Of a stretch of DNA of 40,338 nucleotides, positions 13,815 to 16,275 are shown piece after piece. Position 1 is the stretch's first letter. Every line of letters starts with the position of its first letter. This DNA comes from a virus. The stretch is from positions 1-40,338 of IMG/VR virus record IMGVR_UViG_3300030438_000023. One strand, 5' to 3'. The notes under the pieces were generated by a model, which worked only from the letters and a program-made list of their open reading frames with translations, did not search any database and had not been told where the DNA came from. A program made the position numbers and the translations under genes.

Positions 13815-16275
13815 CCTCGGCCACAAGCTGACCGACAAGGAGCTTGCAAAGCTGGAACGGCGCATTGCGAAGCTATACCGCGAGGCGGGGGAAGAACTGC
13901 AAGCTACCATCGACGCATATTTTGAGCAATTCAAAAAGCGAGACGAGGAAATGAAAGCACTGATCGGCACTGTGCAGAACGGTAAGGAATGGACGGAGGC
14001 CGACTATAAGCAATGGCGGCTGAACCAGATCGGGCGCGGAGAACGCTATAAGGCCATGCGTGACAAGGTGGCACACCGCGTGACCGACGCAAACGCCGTG
14101 GCGGTGTCCTACACCAACGATGCCACGCCTGGTATATACTCCCTTAACCGCAACTATTCGGCCTATACCATCGAACAGGTCGCAGGCAACGTCGGCTTTG
14201 ACCTTTGGGACGAGCAGACGGTCAAGCGGCTCATGTTAGAGCAGCCGGATTTAATGCCATATTACCCGCCGAAGCGAGCATTAAAGCGTGGCATTGACCT
14301 CGAGTATGGCAAAAAGCAAATTACCAAGAGTGTCACCAGCTCCATCTTGCAGGGAAAGAGCATTAAGCACATGGCGGACGACCTGCAAAAGCGCATTACC
14401 ACCATGAGCCGTGATTCTGCCATCCGCACCGCCAGAACCGCCGTGACCGGCGCGCAGAACGCCGGACGCATGGACAGCTATGCGGCGGCGCAGAAGATGG
14501 GCATTAAGCTCAAAAAAGAATGGTTGGCCACGCTGGACGCACGGACACGCCACTCTCATGCCATGCTTGACGGCGAGCAAGTGGCGCAAGACAAGAAATT
14601 TTCTAACGGTTGTCGTTTTCCCGGCGACCCACAAGGGCCACCGTGGGAGATATACAACTGCTTCGTCGGCGAAACGCAAATAGCTTCCGACGGAGAAATC
14701 GTCAGAAGCTATAAACACGAGTATGATGGAGAATTATTTGAAGTCGAAACTGCCGGCGGCGTAAATTTCGCCTGTACACCGAACCACCCAGTATTGACAT
14801 CGAGAGGATGGGTTGCTGCGGCACTCCTTAACGAGGGCGACAACTTGCTCATAGCAAACATCGGAAACAGTATGCTTCCGGGGGGGAATCCAGACATAAA
14901 TCATGTTTTTCCCCGCATGGACGCATTCCACGAGTTTTTTGATGTAACGTTTGGACAGCGGATTAGCACATTGCGTGTGAATTTCCACGGCGACATTCCC
15001 GCATCCGATGTCGAAGTTGTAACTCATAAAAGGCTCTTGAGGAACTACCGGAATGCCAGCGGAAGAAAGTGCATCTATAAAATCTTGCTCAAAATCGCCA
15101 ATGAATCGTTTATGGGCAAGAGCGCGGCGGTGAAGCATCTCTGGCGTGTTTGCAAGTCCACGCTTAGCGTCATTCGCGGCAGACGCAAGGCGCTTCCTTT
15201 CGCTTTCCGATGTTTGGGACATACGGGTGTACATGGATTCGGAGCGGTTCCGAATGTGGACACCGGCGTGATTGAGCCGACAATAAATGACCTGACGGCT
15301 AACCCCATTCTCTTCCGCGAGTTTCTTGATGGATTTCCCTGCGAGGTATTCCCTGACAATATCATCAGGATTAACAGAATTGTTGCGAAATGCCATGTTT
15401 ATAACCTCCAAACGACCACTGGCCATTATTTTGTTAATACAAGTATACCACAAAGCAAAGGAAAGTGCAATGGCAATTTTGCAATCGTTCACAACTGCCG
15501 CTGTACGCTGATTGCCGCCGTGGAGGGTGTAGATACCTCTACTGCGCAGAGACGCGCCAGAAACGCCGATACAGGGCAAACAGAGGTTATTTCGAATATG
15601 ACCTATGCAGAATGGGCGGGGTGGAAGAAAGCGGAAGCGAAAAAGGGAAATAAAACCTTTAATACAGTCAAAGAGGCTGAGGCGTGGATACATGACCAAG
15701 GTATTGATTTTGTCATACTTAATGGGGCCGATGCCAAAACAGCAAGTACAATCGCTAATGCGGTAAACACGCTCCCGCCGGGGATAACCCCTAAAGCCAT
15801 TACGGATTTGACAAGTTTCAAAAAAGGATTTGGGGGAAAATTGCAACGGAAAGACGCTCAAATTTACGGTGTTACGCTTGATAACCTCTGGGGGATAAAT
15901 TTCGGAGATGGCATGAGGGATTATGACGGCGGCGTTATGGTTGGGTTTAACTTCCGAAATTACAAAAATGCTACCGCTATTGCGAAATCAAAAGAAGATA
16001 CAAATAAGCGGTATATGGAAAAAACAGGGCATATGTGGCACTTTAATTTGAGCGGAGAAGCTACATATTACCACGAAATAGGACACGCATATGCGGAACT
16101 AAAGCGTGAATTGCCAACGGGATTCCATGAGGCGGTGCAAAAGTGGTACAAAGAAAGCCAATGCGATATTTTGCAAAAGGATAGCGAAGCATGGGCGGAA
16201 GCGTGGGCGGCATATCACCTTGGGGATAGTAGACTACCAGATTATATAGCTGAATTTATAAAGGGGGTATATTGA
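13801..16275 (+). CDS. MuF / SPP1 gp7-like head morphogenesis protein, intein-interrupted, with C-terminal HExxH metallopeptidase-like domain
   Basis: MuF motifs RTARTAVTGAQNAGR...W.ATLDARTRHSHAMLDG. The conserved NCRC motif is split as ..EIYN|C(intein)HN|CRCT. HEIGH lies at 16072-16086, followed by SEAWAEAWAAYH. The spliced product would be about 545 aa. Confidence 0.85.
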   Translation: MANSDLGHKLTDKELAKLERRIAKLYREAGEELQATIDAYFEQFKKRDEEMKALIGTVQNGKEWTEADYKQWRLNQIGRGERYKAMRDKVAHRVTDANAVAVSYTNDATPGIYSLNRNYSAYTIEQVAGNVGFDLWDEQTVKRLMLEQPDLMPYYPPKRALKRGIDLEYGKKQITKSVTSSILQGKSIKHMADDLQKRITTMSRDSAIRTARTAVTGAQNAGRMDSYAAAQKMGIKLKKEWLATLDARTRHSHAMLDGEQVAQDKKFSNGCRFPGDPQGPPWEIYNCFVGETQIASDGEIVRSYKHEYDGELFEVETAGGVNFACTPNHPVLTSRGWVAAALLNEGDNLLIANIGNSMLPGGNPDINHVFPRMDAFHEFFDVTFGQRISTLRVNFHGDIPASDVEVVTHKRLLRNYRNASGRKCIYKILLKIANESFMGKSAAVKHLWRVCKSTLSVIRGRRKALPFAFRCLGHTGVHGFGAVPNVDTGVIEPTINDLTANPILFREFLDGFPCEVFPDNIIRINRIVAKCHVYNLQTTTGHYFVNTSIPQSKGKCNGNFAIVHNCRCTLIAAVEGVDTSTAQRRARNADTGQTEVISNMTYAEWAGWKKAEAKKGNKTFNTVKEAEAWIHDQGIDFVILNGADAKTASTIANAVNTLPPGITPKAITDLTSFKKGFGGKLQRKDAQIYGVTLDNLWGINFGDGMRDYDGGVMVGFNFRNYKNATAIAKSKEDTNKRYMEKTGHMWHFNLSGEATYYHEIGHAYAELKRELPTGFHEAVQKWYKESQCDILQKDSEAWAEAWAAYHLGDSRLPDYIAEFIKGVY
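14659..15495 (+). mobile_element. intein (279 codons, Cys1 / His-Asn / Cys+1)
   Basis: Block A CFVGETQIASDG, block B GVNFACTPNHPVLT, block F VYNLQTTTGHYFVN, block G FAIVHN followed by Cys. Removing it restores the MuF NCRC motif. GC falls to roughly 40-50% by eye. Confidence 0.85.
14734..15396 (-). CDS. antisense-encoded HTH + PD-(D/E)xK/Vsr-like nuclease (putative homing endonuclease) nested inside the intein
   Basis: ATG 15396 lies 8 nt after GGAGG (15409-15405). 220 aa. The N-terminus has an HTH (VREYLAGKSIKKLAEENGVSRQVIYCRL). The C-terminus (QEPFMSYNFDIGCGNVAVEIHTQ...GKNMIYVW) resembles DUF559/Vsr-type nucleases. The sequence looks protein-like, unlike the sense translation of the same DNA. 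Confidence 0.7.
   Translation of the reverse strand: MAFRNNSVNPDDIVREYLAGKSIKKLAEENGVSRQVIYCRLNHAGVHIRNRSESMYTRMSQTSESERKRLASAANDAKRGLANTPEMLHRRALAHKRFIGDFEQDFIDALSSAGIPVVPQEPFMSYNFDIGCGNVAVEIHTQCANPLSKRYIKKLVECVHAGKNMIYVWIPPRKHTVSDVCYEQVVALVKECRSNPSSRCQYWVVRCTGEIYAAGSFDFK

What the first reader, a model, noticed from the sequence alone, without database searches (positions are those of the whole stretch)
14659..15495. Intein in the MuF/gp7 head protein carries a complete HTH-nuclease gene on the antisense strand, codon-aligned with the intein frame
What the sequence shows:
- The 824-codon + strand ORF is uninterrupted.
- It contains clear Hint blocks: CFVGETQ at 14659, TPNHPVLT, VYNLQTTTGHYFVN, and AIVHN|C at 15495/15496.
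- Removing the intein restores the conserved MuF NCRC motif.
- The ~175 central intein codons show no LAGLIDADG or HNH motif and read like non-protein sequence (for example RISTLRVNFHGDIPASDVEVVTHKRLLRNYRNASGRKCIYKILL).
- The opposite strand holds a 220-codon ORF (15396->14734) with GGAGG 8 nt upstream of its ATG.
- That ORF encodes a convincing resolvase-type HTH and a C-terminal region resembling DUF559/Vsr-type PD-(D/E)xK nucleases.
- The two frames are in exact codon register. Sense stops TAA/TAG/TGA therefore correspond to antisense TTA/CTA/TCA, and the nuclease gene avoids these three codons over its full length.
- The antisense SD lies inside the block F codons. The last ~130 nt of the antisense gene overlap the block A/B coding region, so part of the DNA appears dual-coding.
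- GC drops locally.

Inference: a free-standing-type homing endonuclease gene sits inverted inside a mini-intein, which would uncouple endonuclease expression from the late structural gene. Split-intein 'fractured genes' with free-standing HEGs, and collaborative homing of introns, are known. I am not aware of an antisense HEG nested in a contiguous intein.
Basis: partly seen in the sequence, partly recalled or inferred. Interest (0 to 1): 0.92.

Follow-up and report, generated by a model that had tools for sequence, protein, structure and literature searches.

The report
Intein carrying an antisense homing-endonuclease gene
A self-splicing protein insert (intein) in a phage head-assembly gene carries, on the opposite DNA strand, a real and conserved gene for a DNA-cutting enzyme that probably spreads the insert; the arrangement is genuine and widespread, but a 2025 preprint already described it.

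Summary
The 824-codon MuF/gp7 ORF (13801-16275, +) contains a 279-codon class-1 intein (14659-15495). A 220-codon ORF (15396->14734, -) lies inside it in exact codon register.

Comparative evidence shows that the antisense ORF is a real gene:
- 84 of 84 related loci (30-100% aa identity) keep both frames open.
- In the central part, substitutions pile up at the antisense third codon position. Where the ORF overlaps the Hint N-subdomain, both frames are constrained.
- The antisense protein models confidently (pLDDT 86). Its C-terminal domain resembles I-Bth0305I, DUF559 and MTES_1575 nucleases.
- The central part of the sense frame does not fold.

The intein plus 21 and 29 nt of flank is 100% identical between two phages whose flanking MuF DNA is 89% identical. 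Intein-less alleles also exist. Both point to recent homing.

All are written into Hint blocks G, F and A.

The arrangement is not new. Antisense VSR-like endonuclease genes in inteins of actinophage minor capsid proteins are described in bioRxiv 10.1101/2025.01.02.630785, and antisense LAGLIDADG genes have been reported since 1998. This is a new member of a known kind.

The parts
13801..16275 (+). MuF / SPP1 gp7-type minor head (head morphogenesis) protein precursor, 824 codons, uninterrupted
   Evidence: ORF. Pfam Phage_Mu_F 55.7 bits against a cut-off of 29.6. PHROG head proteins; 66% identity of the spliced form to Dulem virus 33 minor capsid protein.
14659..15495 (+). Class-1 intein, 279 codons, inserted in the MuF motif N|CRC. 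Has Cys1, block B TPNHP, block F VYNLQT and block G VHN, followed by Cys+1.
   Evidence: boundaries. TIGR01445 intein_Nterm 27.5 bits against a cut-off of 24.5. Pfam Intein_splicing 30-33 bits, below its gathering score of 35.8; the intein-less allele aligns across the junction; the AF2 model matches solved inteins.
14659..14868 (+). Hint N-terminal subdomain (intein residues 1-70; block A at 14659, block B at 14776-14799)
   Evidence: pLDDT 74-91. T40, P41, N42, H43 and P44 are invariant or nearly so.
14869..15342 (+). Sense-frame central segment of the intein (residues 71-228). It is kept open but has no recognisable domain and acts as a linker.
   Evidence: no Pfam domain; residues 124-227 have pLDDT below 50; the sense first codon position is the most variable.
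15343..15495 (+). Hint C-terminal subdomain (residues 229-279; block F at 15397-15438, block G at 15481-15495)
   Evidence: pLDDT 78-91. VYNLQT...HN|CRC is conserved in related loci.
14734..15396 (-). Antisense gene for a 220-aa HTH plus Vsr/DUF559-type PD-(D/E)xK nuclease (putative homing endonuclease), in exact codon register with the intein frame. Stop codon at 14734-14736.
   Evidence: ORF, register. (homologues); intact and nested in 84 of 84 loci; codon-position signature; pLDDT 86. (nuclease fold and family hits).
15262..15372 (-). N-terminal helix-turn-helix of the antisense protein (about residues 9-45)
   Evidence: weak hits to HTH_58, HTH_28 and HTH_7; profile hits to resolvase and other HTH structures; helices 10-18, 23-30 and 34-43.
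14749..15099 (-). C-terminal nuclease domain of the antisense protein (about residues 100-216). D129 is nearly invariant and E138 invariant, in YNxD...AVE.
   Evidence: conservation; best Foldseek match is 3r3p, the I-Bth0305I catalytic domain; 3hrl (DUF559) at E=0.005. PF18741 in 11 of 20 family members.
14737..14868 (.). Dual-coding stretch. The last 44 codons of the nuclease gene lie opposite Hint residues 27-70, including block B (TPNHP opposite WVVRC).
   Evidence: codon map; positions 1 and 3 vary equally, position 2 is nearly frozen, and amino-acid identity is similar in both frames.
15405..15409 (-). Shine-Dalgarno GGAGG, 8 nt before the ATG. It is the reverse complement of the N-L-Q codons of block F. 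The ATG is the reverse complement of the His codon before VYNLQT.
   Evidence: TTGGAGGTT is conserved. Leu codon CTC in 49 of 49 (background 27%), AAC in 47 of 49, CAA in 40 of 49.
15442..15470 (-). Promoter-like element for the antisense gene: -35 TTGCAC (15470-15465), 17-nt spacer, extended -10 TGGTATACT (15450-15442). It lies between Hint blocks F and G. Predicted transcription start near 15435.
   Evidence: TGnTATA[AC]T sits at the same position in 26 of 36 distinct relatives of the 52%-or-more group. Ile codon ATA in 30 of 33 (background 26%) and NCA in 27 of 29 (background 28%). The generic scan did not list it. Function not shown.
14680..14712 (-). 13-bp stem-loop 22 nt after the antisense stop, followed by a T-rich tail. 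It is written into the block A region codons (IASDGEIVRSY) and is a terminator-like 3' element of the antisense transcript.
   Evidence: listed.: -26 kcal/mol, z=-4.1; 85% of cells paired against 30-46% in slid controls, 10 of 13 pairs with changes on both sides, 0 of 500 shuffles reach the observed values; 39 G-U against 11 A-C cells, favouring the antisense RNA.
14638..15524 (.). 887-nt tract identical to IMG/VR contig UViG_3300045988_008712 (L006): the intein plus 21 nt upstream and 29 nt downstream. This is the footprint of a recent transfer.
   Evidence: 837 of 837 intein bases are identical, while the N-extein is 88.9% and the portal gene 90.0% identical.

Best explanation
This is a composite selfish element inside the phage MuF/gp7 head-morphogenesis gene. 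On the sense strand it is a class-1 intein. The intein is translated as part of the MuF precursor and splices itself out, restoring the conserved N-CRC motif. Only its two Hint subdomains are functional protein. The roughly 160 codons between them are merely kept free of stop codons.

On the opposite strand the same DNA carries a complete gene for a 220-aa protein: an N-terminal HTH, a conserved helical region, and a C-terminal Vsr/DUF559/EDxHD-like PD-(D/E)xK nuclease domain.

The gene brings its own expression signals, all inside the intein:
- a sigma-A/sigma-70-type promoter with an extended -10, written into the codons between blocks F and G;
- a GGAGG and an ATG, written into block F;
- a stem-loop with a U-rich tail, written into the block A region.

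The nuclease is inferred to cut intein-less MuF alleles near the N|CRC codons during co-infection. Recombinational repair then copies the intein and nuclease gene, with very short flanks, into the recipient. Having its own promoter on the other strand would let the enzyme be made independently of late structural transcription.

Shown here: the anatomy, purifying selection on the antisense frame, dual constraint where the two proteins overlap, the folds, conserved nucleotide-level signals, intein-less alleles, and a recent-transfer tract.

Inferred: splicing, transcription, translation, cleavage and timing.
For: - Intein: the boundaries and catalytic residues are present. TIGR01445 scores above its cut-off. 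The model matches solved inteins. The intein-less Dulem virus 33 allele is contiguous across the junction.
- Conservation of the antisense gene: there are 123 phage records and 115 database clusters with full-length homologues of about 218-223 aa. In four annotated phages the match lies on the strand opposite the host CDS. In 84 of 84 loci the opposite strand is open across the whole match.
- Selection: in the central 176 codons the difference rates at antisense positions 1, 2 and 3 are .067.029 and .169. Amino-acid identity is .91 in the antisense frame against .82 in the sense frame, and .84 against .60 in more distant pairs. In the Hint overlap the rates are .12.019 and .103.
- Folds: the antisense protein has pLDDT 86, whereas sense residues 124-227 are below 50.
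- Nuclease identity: the best Foldseek match is 3r3p, I-Bth0305I. The profile hits 3hrl, a DUF559 protein. PF18741 matches 11 of 20 members.
- Expression signals: SD and start codon, promoter, hairpin.
- Mobility: an 887-nt identical tract sits inside 89%-identical flanks. The same module occurs in UDG-like and metallopeptidase host genes.
- Literature: the same architecture, with the same 3R3P match, is described for actinophages.
Against: - There are no expression, splicing or cleavage data.
- The window's own nuclease sequence has no Pfam nuclease hit. Only the family profile and the structure model give the assignment, and the Foldseek E-value is modest (0.015; TM 0.59 normalised to the target).
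- The third catalytic position after E138 varies across the family (H, D, E, F or T), so some members may be inactive.
- The promoter's -35 matches only 3 of 6 bases, and the generic scan did not list it. Terminator-like sites in the region are no more frequent than in shuffles.
- The sequences used for the codon and covariation counts are related to each other, so the P-values overstate independence.
- The constant codon register follows from shared ancestry plus two intact ORFs. It is not independent evidence.
Confidence: 0.85

Rival explanations
1. The antisense ORF is a by-product. Long open frames in the register-matched antisense frame arise easily from codon bias, and its apparent homologues only mirror conservation of the sense intein.
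For: In this window alone, the chance of no TTA, CTA or TCA in 220 codons is about 0.04-0.05, which is not extreme. The register-matched antisense frame has the fewest stop-generating codons.
Against: In the central region the most variable position is antisense position 3, which is sense position 1. That is the opposite of what sense-frame selection would give. The antisense frame is far better conserved (.84 against .60). It is intact in 84 of 84 loci down to 30% identity. It models confidently with a nuclease fold, while the sense segment does not fold. Synonymous sites of the sense frame are frozen exactly where the SD and -10 lie.
Confidence: 0.02
2. The antisense protein is real but is not a homing endonuclease. 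It could be a DNA-binding regulator, an antisense-encoded controller of MuF expression, or a nuclease with some other role in the phage such as anti-defence or host DNA degradation. The intein would then be inherited mostly vertically.
For: No activity data exist. The HTH and the highly conserved RNRSESMY helical region are the best-conserved parts. The third catalytic position varies. The 2025 preprint reports that most VSR-like cases look vertically inherited.
Against: An 887-nt tract is identical, ending 21 and 29 nt outside the intein, within 89%-identical flanks. Intein-less alleles exist in close relatives. The module is found in three unrelated host genes at similar x|C[RH] sites. The nuclease core residues (D129 nearly invariant, E138 invariant) are kept. 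The closest solved structure is a proven homing endonuclease.
Confidence: 0.1
3. The element is a decaying relic. The intein still splices, but the nuclease gene is no longer expressed or active in this phage, and the conserved 'promoter' and hairpin are only consequences of Hint codon conservation.
For: The -35 is weak. The U-tract is imperfect. No transcription data exist. The hairpin would also form in the sense mRNA.
Against: The ORF is intact, and it is 100% identical in three independent contigs (window, L005, L006), one of which (L006) has diverged flanks. The amino acids over the -10 vary (P, A, S or T) while the nucleotides xCA stay fixed, and Ile is ATA in 30 of 33. The hairpin shows compensatory changes, including Arg codon-family switches, and a G-U bias towards the antisense strand.
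Confidence: 0.08

Closest known systems
Inteins with an anti-sense VSR-like homing endonuclease in actinobacteriophage proteins, including minor capsid protein IPR006528 (Gosselin, Arsenault & Gogarten, bioRxiv 10.1101/2025.01.02.630785)
   Same: A contiguous intein with an endonuclease gene on the antisense strand between the splicing blocks. The in-frame segment has no recognisable structure. The endonuclease matches PDB 3R3P. The host is a phage minor capsid (MuF) protein. Gordonia phages Vivi2, Fosterous, Affeca and Angelicage carry direct homologues (about 42% identity, E as low as 5e-42).
   Different: This copy is in a gut phage related to Clostridia phages, not in an actinophage. The family also reaches Salmonella, Escherichia, Klebsiella, Pseudomonas, Vibrio and Haemophilus phages. 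The preprint does not mention a promoter, SD or terminator. I could not confirm from its main text which phages it lists.
Synechocystis / cyanobacterial DnaX intein with a LAGLIDADG endonuclease in another reading frame (Gorbalenya 1998, as cited; Phillips et al., bioRxiv 10.64898/2026.09.14.751524)
   Same: The endonuclease is encoded in a frame other than the intein frame. Selection acts on the endonuclease frame while the intein frame is relaxed in the overlap. An origin by secondary invasion of a mini-intein has been proposed.
   Different: It has a different endonuclease family (LAGLIDADG) and a cellular host gene. The 2026 preprint calls the frame '+2ORF' and out-of-frame rather than antisense.
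I-Bth0305I and the EDxHD family of Vsr-like homing endonucleases; 'fractured genes' with split inteins (Taylor et al. 2011, PMC3239194; Dassa et al. 2009 as cited there)
   Same: An N-terminal DNA-binding region (putative HTH) plus a C-terminal Vsr-like catalytic domain. The family is associated with phage genes, introns and inteins. This is the best structural match.
   Different: There the gene sits in a group I intron, or between the halves of a split intein, or stands free. Here the intein is contiguous and the gene is antisense and dual-coding. There is no significant sequence hit to 3r3p, and the EDxHD residues were not verified.
Canonical inteins with in-frame LAGLIDADG or HNH endonuclease domains
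   Same: A Hint splicing domain interrupted at the same topological point by a mobility module, inserted at a conserved host motif.
   Different: In those inteins the endonuclease is part of the same polypeptide and is expressed with the host protein. Here it is a separate protein from the other strand.
'Large intein' in the capsid morphogenesis protein of Guernseyvirinae (E. coli phage Snoke, Salmonella LSPA1 and Jerseyviruses; PMC6776784, PMC8425127)
   Same: A homologous intein at the homologous MuF site. These records are among my hits for both the Hint and the antisense protein.
   Different: Those papers report only an intein. They do not mention an antisense gene.

Membership tests
Class-1 intein (Hint domain) | N-terminal Cys/Ser nucleophile; block B TxxH; C-terminal (H)N followed by Cys/Ser/Thr at +1 | tested here: met
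   C1 (CFVGETQ), TPNH at residues 40-43, and VHN|C at 15495/15496. These are conserved in relatives, although the penultimate His is K, R, A or S in some.
Class-1 intein (Hint domain) | Match to curated intein models | tested here: met
   TIGR01445 intein_Nterm scores 27.5 bits against a cut-off of 24.5. Pfam Intein_splicing scores 30-33 bits, below its gathering score of 35.8.
Class-1 intein (Hint domain) | Hint fold | tested here: met
   In the AF2 model, residues 1-70 and 229-279 are confident. Foldseek gives probability 1.0 to VMA, RecA and DnaX inteins.
Class-1 intein (Hint domain) | Removal restores a contiguous, conserved host protein | tested here: met
   The spliced form aligns without a gap across N|CRC to Dulem virus 33 MuF.
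Class-1 intein (Hint domain) | Protein splicing activity | not testable with these tools
   Needs expression of the precursor.
MuF / SPP1 gp7 head morphogenesis protein | Phage_Mu_F domain above the curated cut-off; gene in the head module | tested here: met
   PF04233 scores 55.7 bits against 29.6. PHROG head and minor head families match. The homologous Dulem virus 33 gene follows terminase and portal.
Vsr / DUF559 / MTES_1575 branch of PD-(D/E)xK nucleases | Sequence match to family models | tested here: inconclusive
   The window protein itself has no hit. Of 20 family members, 11 hit PF18741 (best E=3.3e-7) and 2 hit DUF559. The family profile hits the DUF559 structure 3hrl at E=0.005.
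Vsr / DUF559 / MTES_1575 branch of PD-(D/E)xK nucleases | Conserved acidic core residues (D ... E-x-[K/D/H]) | tested here: met
   D129 (nearly invariant) and E138 (invariant) lie in YNxD...AVE and align to VDF...VEADG of 3hrl. The third position varies.
EDxHD homing endonuclease family (I-Bth0305I) | Catalytic-domain fold like 3r3p | tested here: met
   3r3p is the top Foldseek hit: probability 1.00, E=0.015, TM 0.59 normalised to the target, 96 columns.
EDxHD homing endonuclease family (I-Bth0305I) | The composite E-D-x-H-D catalytic motif | not tested
   No reliable sequence alignment to I-Bth0305I was obtained, and there was no hit in the profile searches.
EDxHD homing endonuclease family (I-Bth0305I) | N-terminal modular DNA-binding region (NUMOD or HTH) | tested here: inconclusive
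   HTH models match only weakly (E=1e-4 to 0.03, all below their cut-offs). The model shows a three-helix bundle. NUMOD motifs were not examined.
Homing endonuclease (functional class) | Encoded within a mobile intervening sequence that is present or absent among alleles of the host gene | tested here: met
   Intein-less MuF alleles exist in close relatives. The gene is nested in the intein in 84 of 84 loci.
Homing endonuclease (functional class) | Evidence of lateral transfer of the element with short co-converted flanks | tested here: met
   An 887-nt identical tract lies within 89-90% identical flanks.
Homing endonuclease (functional class) | Site-specific cleavage of the element-free allele | not testable with these tools
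   Needs purified protein and a substrate.
Inteins with an anti-sense VSR-like endonuclease (Gosselin et al. 2025) | Contiguous intein; endonuclease ORF on the opposite strand between the splicing blocks; VSR-like fold matching 3R3P | tested here: met
   compared with the description.

The most novel reading that the evidence does not exclude
The intein and its antisense nuclease gene are an obligately co-adapted unit, not a chance nesting. The promoter (-35 and extended -10), ribosome-binding site, start codon, last 44 codons and 3' stem-loop of the nuclease gene are all written into the codons of Hint blocks G, F, B and A. Part of what is read as conserved intein splicing blocks (for example H-VYNLQT and S-I-P) would then be conserved, or at least codon-frozen, to express the opposite-strand gene. 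This single cassette has spread across phages of Actinobacteria, Firmicutes and Proteobacteria, and into at least three unrelated host genes. As far as I could find, neither the embedded expression signals nor this breadth is described in the literature I could search.
Probability: 0.55. Interest if true: 0.6.

Novelty: new member of a known kind. Interest (0 to 1): 0.45.

Why it matters
- **Hidden genes.** Protein-coding genes can hide on the antisense strand of annotated phage structural genes. In public collections this nuclease is called as a gene almost only on contigs of about 1 kb, where the host ORF is truncated. It is unannotated in all four phage records I inspected out of the 123 with a match. 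Pfam gave only weak, sub-threshold HTH hits for it and no nuclease family.
- **Intein evolution.** The locus supports the view that endonuclease genes invade pre-existing splicing domains. It offers a well-sampled natural case of dense dual coding: two folded proteins plus regulatory signals in the same DNA.
- **Practical uses.** The family provides many diverged pairs of nuclease and target site (N|CRC of MuF, H|CH of a UDG-like gene, HEL|CH of a metallopeptidase) that could be tested as site-specific nucleases. It also offers a set of related inteins that tolerate a long unstructured insert.
- **Priority.** The basic architecture was already reported in 2025, so the value here lies in extension and detail.

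Tried and rejected
1. **Mini-intein alleles.** A tblastn with an artificial mini-intein (Hint N plus Hint C) seemed to give contiguous matches in Cronobacter phage ES2 and Aaphi23. Translating the genes showed full-size inteins of about 270-330 aa. I found no endonuclease-less allele.
2. **Free-standing relatives.** The longer family members P0112 and P0115 were candidates. P0112 turned out to be nested antisense in a MuF intein as well, with a duplicated HTH. 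P0115 sits on a 1-kb contig and says nothing. A profile search listed only the same family. Free-standing relatives therefore remain unshown here.
3. **Direct sequence link to solved structures.** The window protein alone gave only noise against solved structures.
4. **Generic promoter and terminator scan.** It found no promoter on the - strand, and terminator-like sites were no more frequent than in shuffles. The promoter claim rests on conservation, not on that scan.
5. **Constant codon register.** I first took the register (84 of 84) as independent evidence. I rejected that, because it follows from common descent plus two intact ORFs.
6. **Literature searches.** Searches for 'opposite strand', 'complementary strand' and 'antisense' with 'intein' gave nothing relevant. 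A search on mycobacteriophage inteins then found the 2025 preprint.
7. **C-terminal domain of the host protein.** Pfam found nothing in it.

Full report
**1. The observation**

The + strand ORF 13801-16275 (824 aa) is uninterrupted. It carries a Phage_Mu_F domain (55.7 bits against a cut-off of 29.6) and hits to intein splicing models.

The intein is 279 codons, 14659-15495:
- Cys1 in CFVGETQ;
- block B TPNHPVLT at 14776-14799;
- block F VYNLQTTTGHYFVN at 15397-15438;
- block G AIVHN, followed by Cys+1 at 15496.

Removing it joins ...EIYN to CRCTLIA.... That product aligns without a gap, at 66% identity, to the intein-less minor capsid protein of Dulem virus 33 (...VYNCRCTMIA). The boundaries are therefore right and intein-less alleles exist.

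The - strand ORF from ATG 15396 to the stop at 14734-14736 encodes 220 aa. It lies in exact codon register with the sense frame and uses no TTA, CTA or TCA codons. GGAGG (15409-15405) lies 8 nt before the ATG. GC is 0.479 in the intein against 0.557 and 0.561 in the adjoining extein DNA.

Two qualifications apply:
- With this window's codon usage, the chance of zero TTA, CTA or TCA in 220 codons is only about 0.04-0.05. Taken alone, the window is merely suggestive.
- The antisense ORF overlaps block B and the rest of the Hint N-subdomain, but not block A.

**2. Is the antisense ORF a gene?**

*Distribution.* A tblastn search with the 220-aa protein finds near-full-length matches (30-42% identity) in 123 phage records. 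These are Salmonella, Pseudomonas, Gordonia, Klebsiella, Vibrio, Acinetobacter, Edwardsiella, Haemophilus and Aggregatibacter phages. In the four I inspected, the match is on the strand opposite the annotated head-protein CDS. The large protein collection holds 115 clusters, almost all 218-223 aa, and mostly from contigs of about 1 kb.

*Both frames open.* IMG/VR gave 79 loci. In all 84 loci examined (these 79, four phage records and the window, spanning 30-100% identity), the opposite strand is open across 100% of the match. The host protein is MuF-like with an intein at the same site, xxN|C...VYNLQT...HN|CRC. The sense frame has to stay open for MuF to be made. The antisense frame has no such external reason, so its intactness everywhere argues for selection. 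The constant register follows from common descent plus two intact ORFs, and I do not count it separately.

*Codon positions.* I built a codon alignment of 66 distinct genes and counted differences by codon position.

| Region (antisense residues) | Pairs | Diff. rate, antisense pos. 1 / 2 / 3 | aa identity, antisense vs sense |
|---|---|---|---|
| Central (1-176) | ≥85% nt identity | .067 / .029 / .169 | .91 vs .82 |
| Central (1-176) | 75-85% nt identity | .137 / .080 / .383 | .84 vs .60 |
| Overlap with Hint N-subdomain (177-220) | ≥85% nt identity | .12 / .019 / .103 | .88 vs .90 |

In the central region the wobble position of the antisense frame, which is the first position of the sense frame, takes most of the change. 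That is the signature of purifying selection on the antisense protein and relaxed selection on the sense peptide. In the overlap, positions 1 and 3 vary equally and position 2 is almost frozen, which indicates true dual coding. There, block B T-P-N-H-P lies opposite C-R-V-V-W of the nuclease.

*Folds.* With a 37-sequence alignment, AlphaFold gives the antisense protein a mean pLDDT of 86. The sense intein is confident only in residues 1-70 and 229-279. Residues 124-227 are below 50. The confident parts match solved inteins.

**3. What the antisense protein is**

The protein has an N-terminal three-helix HTH, supported only by weak Pfam HTH_58, HTH_28 and HTH_7 hits. A strongly conserved helical segment (RNRSESMYxRM...) follows. 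The C-terminal α/β domain carries the nearly invariant D129 and invariant E138 in YNxD...AVE.

Evidence on the C-terminal domain:
- The family profile hits the DUF559 structure 3hrl (E=0.005-0.008).
- Of 20 members, 11 hit Pfam MTES_1575 (best E=3.3e-7) and 2 hit DUF559.
- The best structural match of the model is 3r3p, the catalytic domain of the homing endonuclease I-Bth0305I (probability 1.0, E=0.015).

The domain is therefore a Vsr/DUF559-type PD-(D/E)xK nuclease. Membership of the EDxHD family is supported by fold only. I did not verify the motif, and the window protein on its own has no nuclease hit.

**4.

*Start and SD.* The start codon is the reverse complement of the His codon that precedes VYNLQT. 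The SD is the reverse complement of the N-L-Q codons. Across distinct relatives, Leu is CTC in 49 of 49 (background 27%), Asn is AAC in 47 of 49 and Gln is CAA in 40 of 49.

*Promoter-like element.* In the group with at least 52% identity, an extended -10, TGnTATA[AC]T, begins 41 nt upstream of the SD in 26 of 36 distinct sequences. A -35-like TTG[CAT]NN lies 17 nt upstream of the -10 hexamer. In the window these are TTGCAC at 15470-15465 and TGGTATACT at 15450-15442. The sense codons over the -10 are AGT/ATT-ATA-NCA. Ile is ATA in 30 of 33 (background 26%). The next residue varies (P, A, S or T) while its codon stays xCA in 27 of 29 (background 28%). This is a nucleotide-level constraint, not an amino-acid-level one.

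*3' stem-loop.* A 13-bp stem-loop (14712-14680 on the - strand) begins 22 nt after the stop. It folds at -26 kcal/mol with z=-4.1 and is followed by a T-rich tail. In 32 relatives, 85% of cells are paired against 30-46% in slid controls. Ten of 13 pairs change on both sides, and none of 500 shuffles reaches the observed values. G-U cells outnumber A-C cells 39 to 11 in the antisense orientation, which points to the antisense RNA.

*Caveats.* The -35 is weak. The generic scan did not list the promoter, and it found terminator-like sites at the chance rate. The sequences are related to one another. Function is inferred.

**5. Mobility**

Against IMG/VR contig L006, the intein is identical at 837 of 837 bases. 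The N-extein is 88.9% identical and the portal gene 90.0%. The identical tract runs from 14638 to 15524, which is the intein plus 21 and 29 nt. About 90 differences would be expected at the divergence of the flanks. This is the footprint of a recent homing-type transfer with very short co-conversion.

The same Hint module with its antisense nuclease also sits in other host genes:
- a UDG-like gene (IVH|C...HN|CHT);
- inside the HExxH motif of a phage metallopeptidase (HEL|C...HN|CH);
- another MuF-like gene.

**6. Comparison with what is known**

The 2025 preprint by Gosselin, Arsenault and Gogarten (10.1101/2025.01.02.630785) describes 'anti-sense VSR-like' endonucleases inside full inteins of actinophage proteins, including minor capsid proteins. 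It reports an HHpred match to 3R3P and an unstructured in-frame segment, and it proposes invasion of inteins by free-standing endonuclease genes. According to the same text, antisense LAGLIDADG endonucleases in the DnaX intein go back to Gorbalenya in 1998. A 2026 preprint applies frame-specific selection analysis to that case. Genome announcements note a 'large intein' in the capsid morphogenesis gene of Snoke, LSPA1 and Jerseyviruses but mention no antisense gene.

The architecture is therefore known, and this locus is a new member. What I could not find in the searched literature is:
- the embedded promoter, SD, start codon and stem-loop (the 2025 preprint never uses 'promoter' or 'ribosome binding');
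- the spread of one homologous cassette across phages of three bacterial phyla.

**7. Verdict**

My confidence that this is a functional intein with an antisense nuclease gene forming one mobile unit is about 0.85. For the embedded expression signals it is about 0.55. Splicing, transcription, translation and cleavage are all untested.

Noticed in passing
window 15628-16272 (+); compare L005 and L006: The C-terminal ~215 aa of this MuF protein has a low GC of 0.434, contains an HExxH motif (YYHEIGHAY) and has no Pfam hit. Near-identical phages lose all homology to it just after the intein (after 15616 in L005 and 15539 in L006). It looks like a swappable, polymorphic C-terminal module of the kind known for MuF proteins.
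   Followed up: partly
L088 1434-2897, L089 1007-2449, L090 2001-3467: The same Hint module with its antisense nuclease (family HMM E=1e-49 to 1e-53, same register) sits in other host genes. These are a UDG-like protein (IVH|C...HN|CHT), a phage metallopeptidase where it lies inside the HExxH motif (HEL|C...HN|CH), and a further MuF-like protein. The similar x|C[RH] junctions suggest ectopic homing to look-alike sites.
   Followed up: partly
proteins P0001-P0115: The nuclease is called as a gene almost only on contigs of about 1 kb, where the host ORF is cut off. On long contigs and in the four phage records I inspected, only the sense MuF ORF is annotated. The family is therefore largely invisible to annotation, and Pfam gave only weak HTH hits for it and no nuclease family.
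   Followed up: no
L048, L049, L054, L061, L074, L083 (upstream of the antisense start): In distant family members with a shorter F-G spacing, a TATAAT (often TGnTATAAT) is formed by the block G codons I-I (ATT ATA) of IIxHN|C. The -10-like element seems to be re-created in a different Hint block.
   Followed up: no
L085 3704-5502 (- strand): In this 43.5-kb contig the MuF gene appears as two overlapping ORFs (5068-5502 and 3704-5164). This could be a frameshift or an assembly error upstream of the intein. Its antisense nuclease (P0112, 291 aa) has a duplicated N-terminal HTH.
   Followed up: partly
window 14660-14675 (- strand): A second small stem-loop (GUUUCGCCGACGAAGC) directly follows the conserved hairpin and overlaps the first intein codons. 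It recurs in several relatives.
   Followed up: no
window 10253-10330 (+): tRNA-Thr (anticodon CGT), upstream of the packaging and head module.
   Followed up: no
window 14734-15861 (- strand): The antisense open frame continues upstream of the ATG to a TTG at 15861 (375 codons), running across the C-extein junction. Homologues, the SD and the promoter all point to the ATG at 15396 as the real start.
   Followed up: yes
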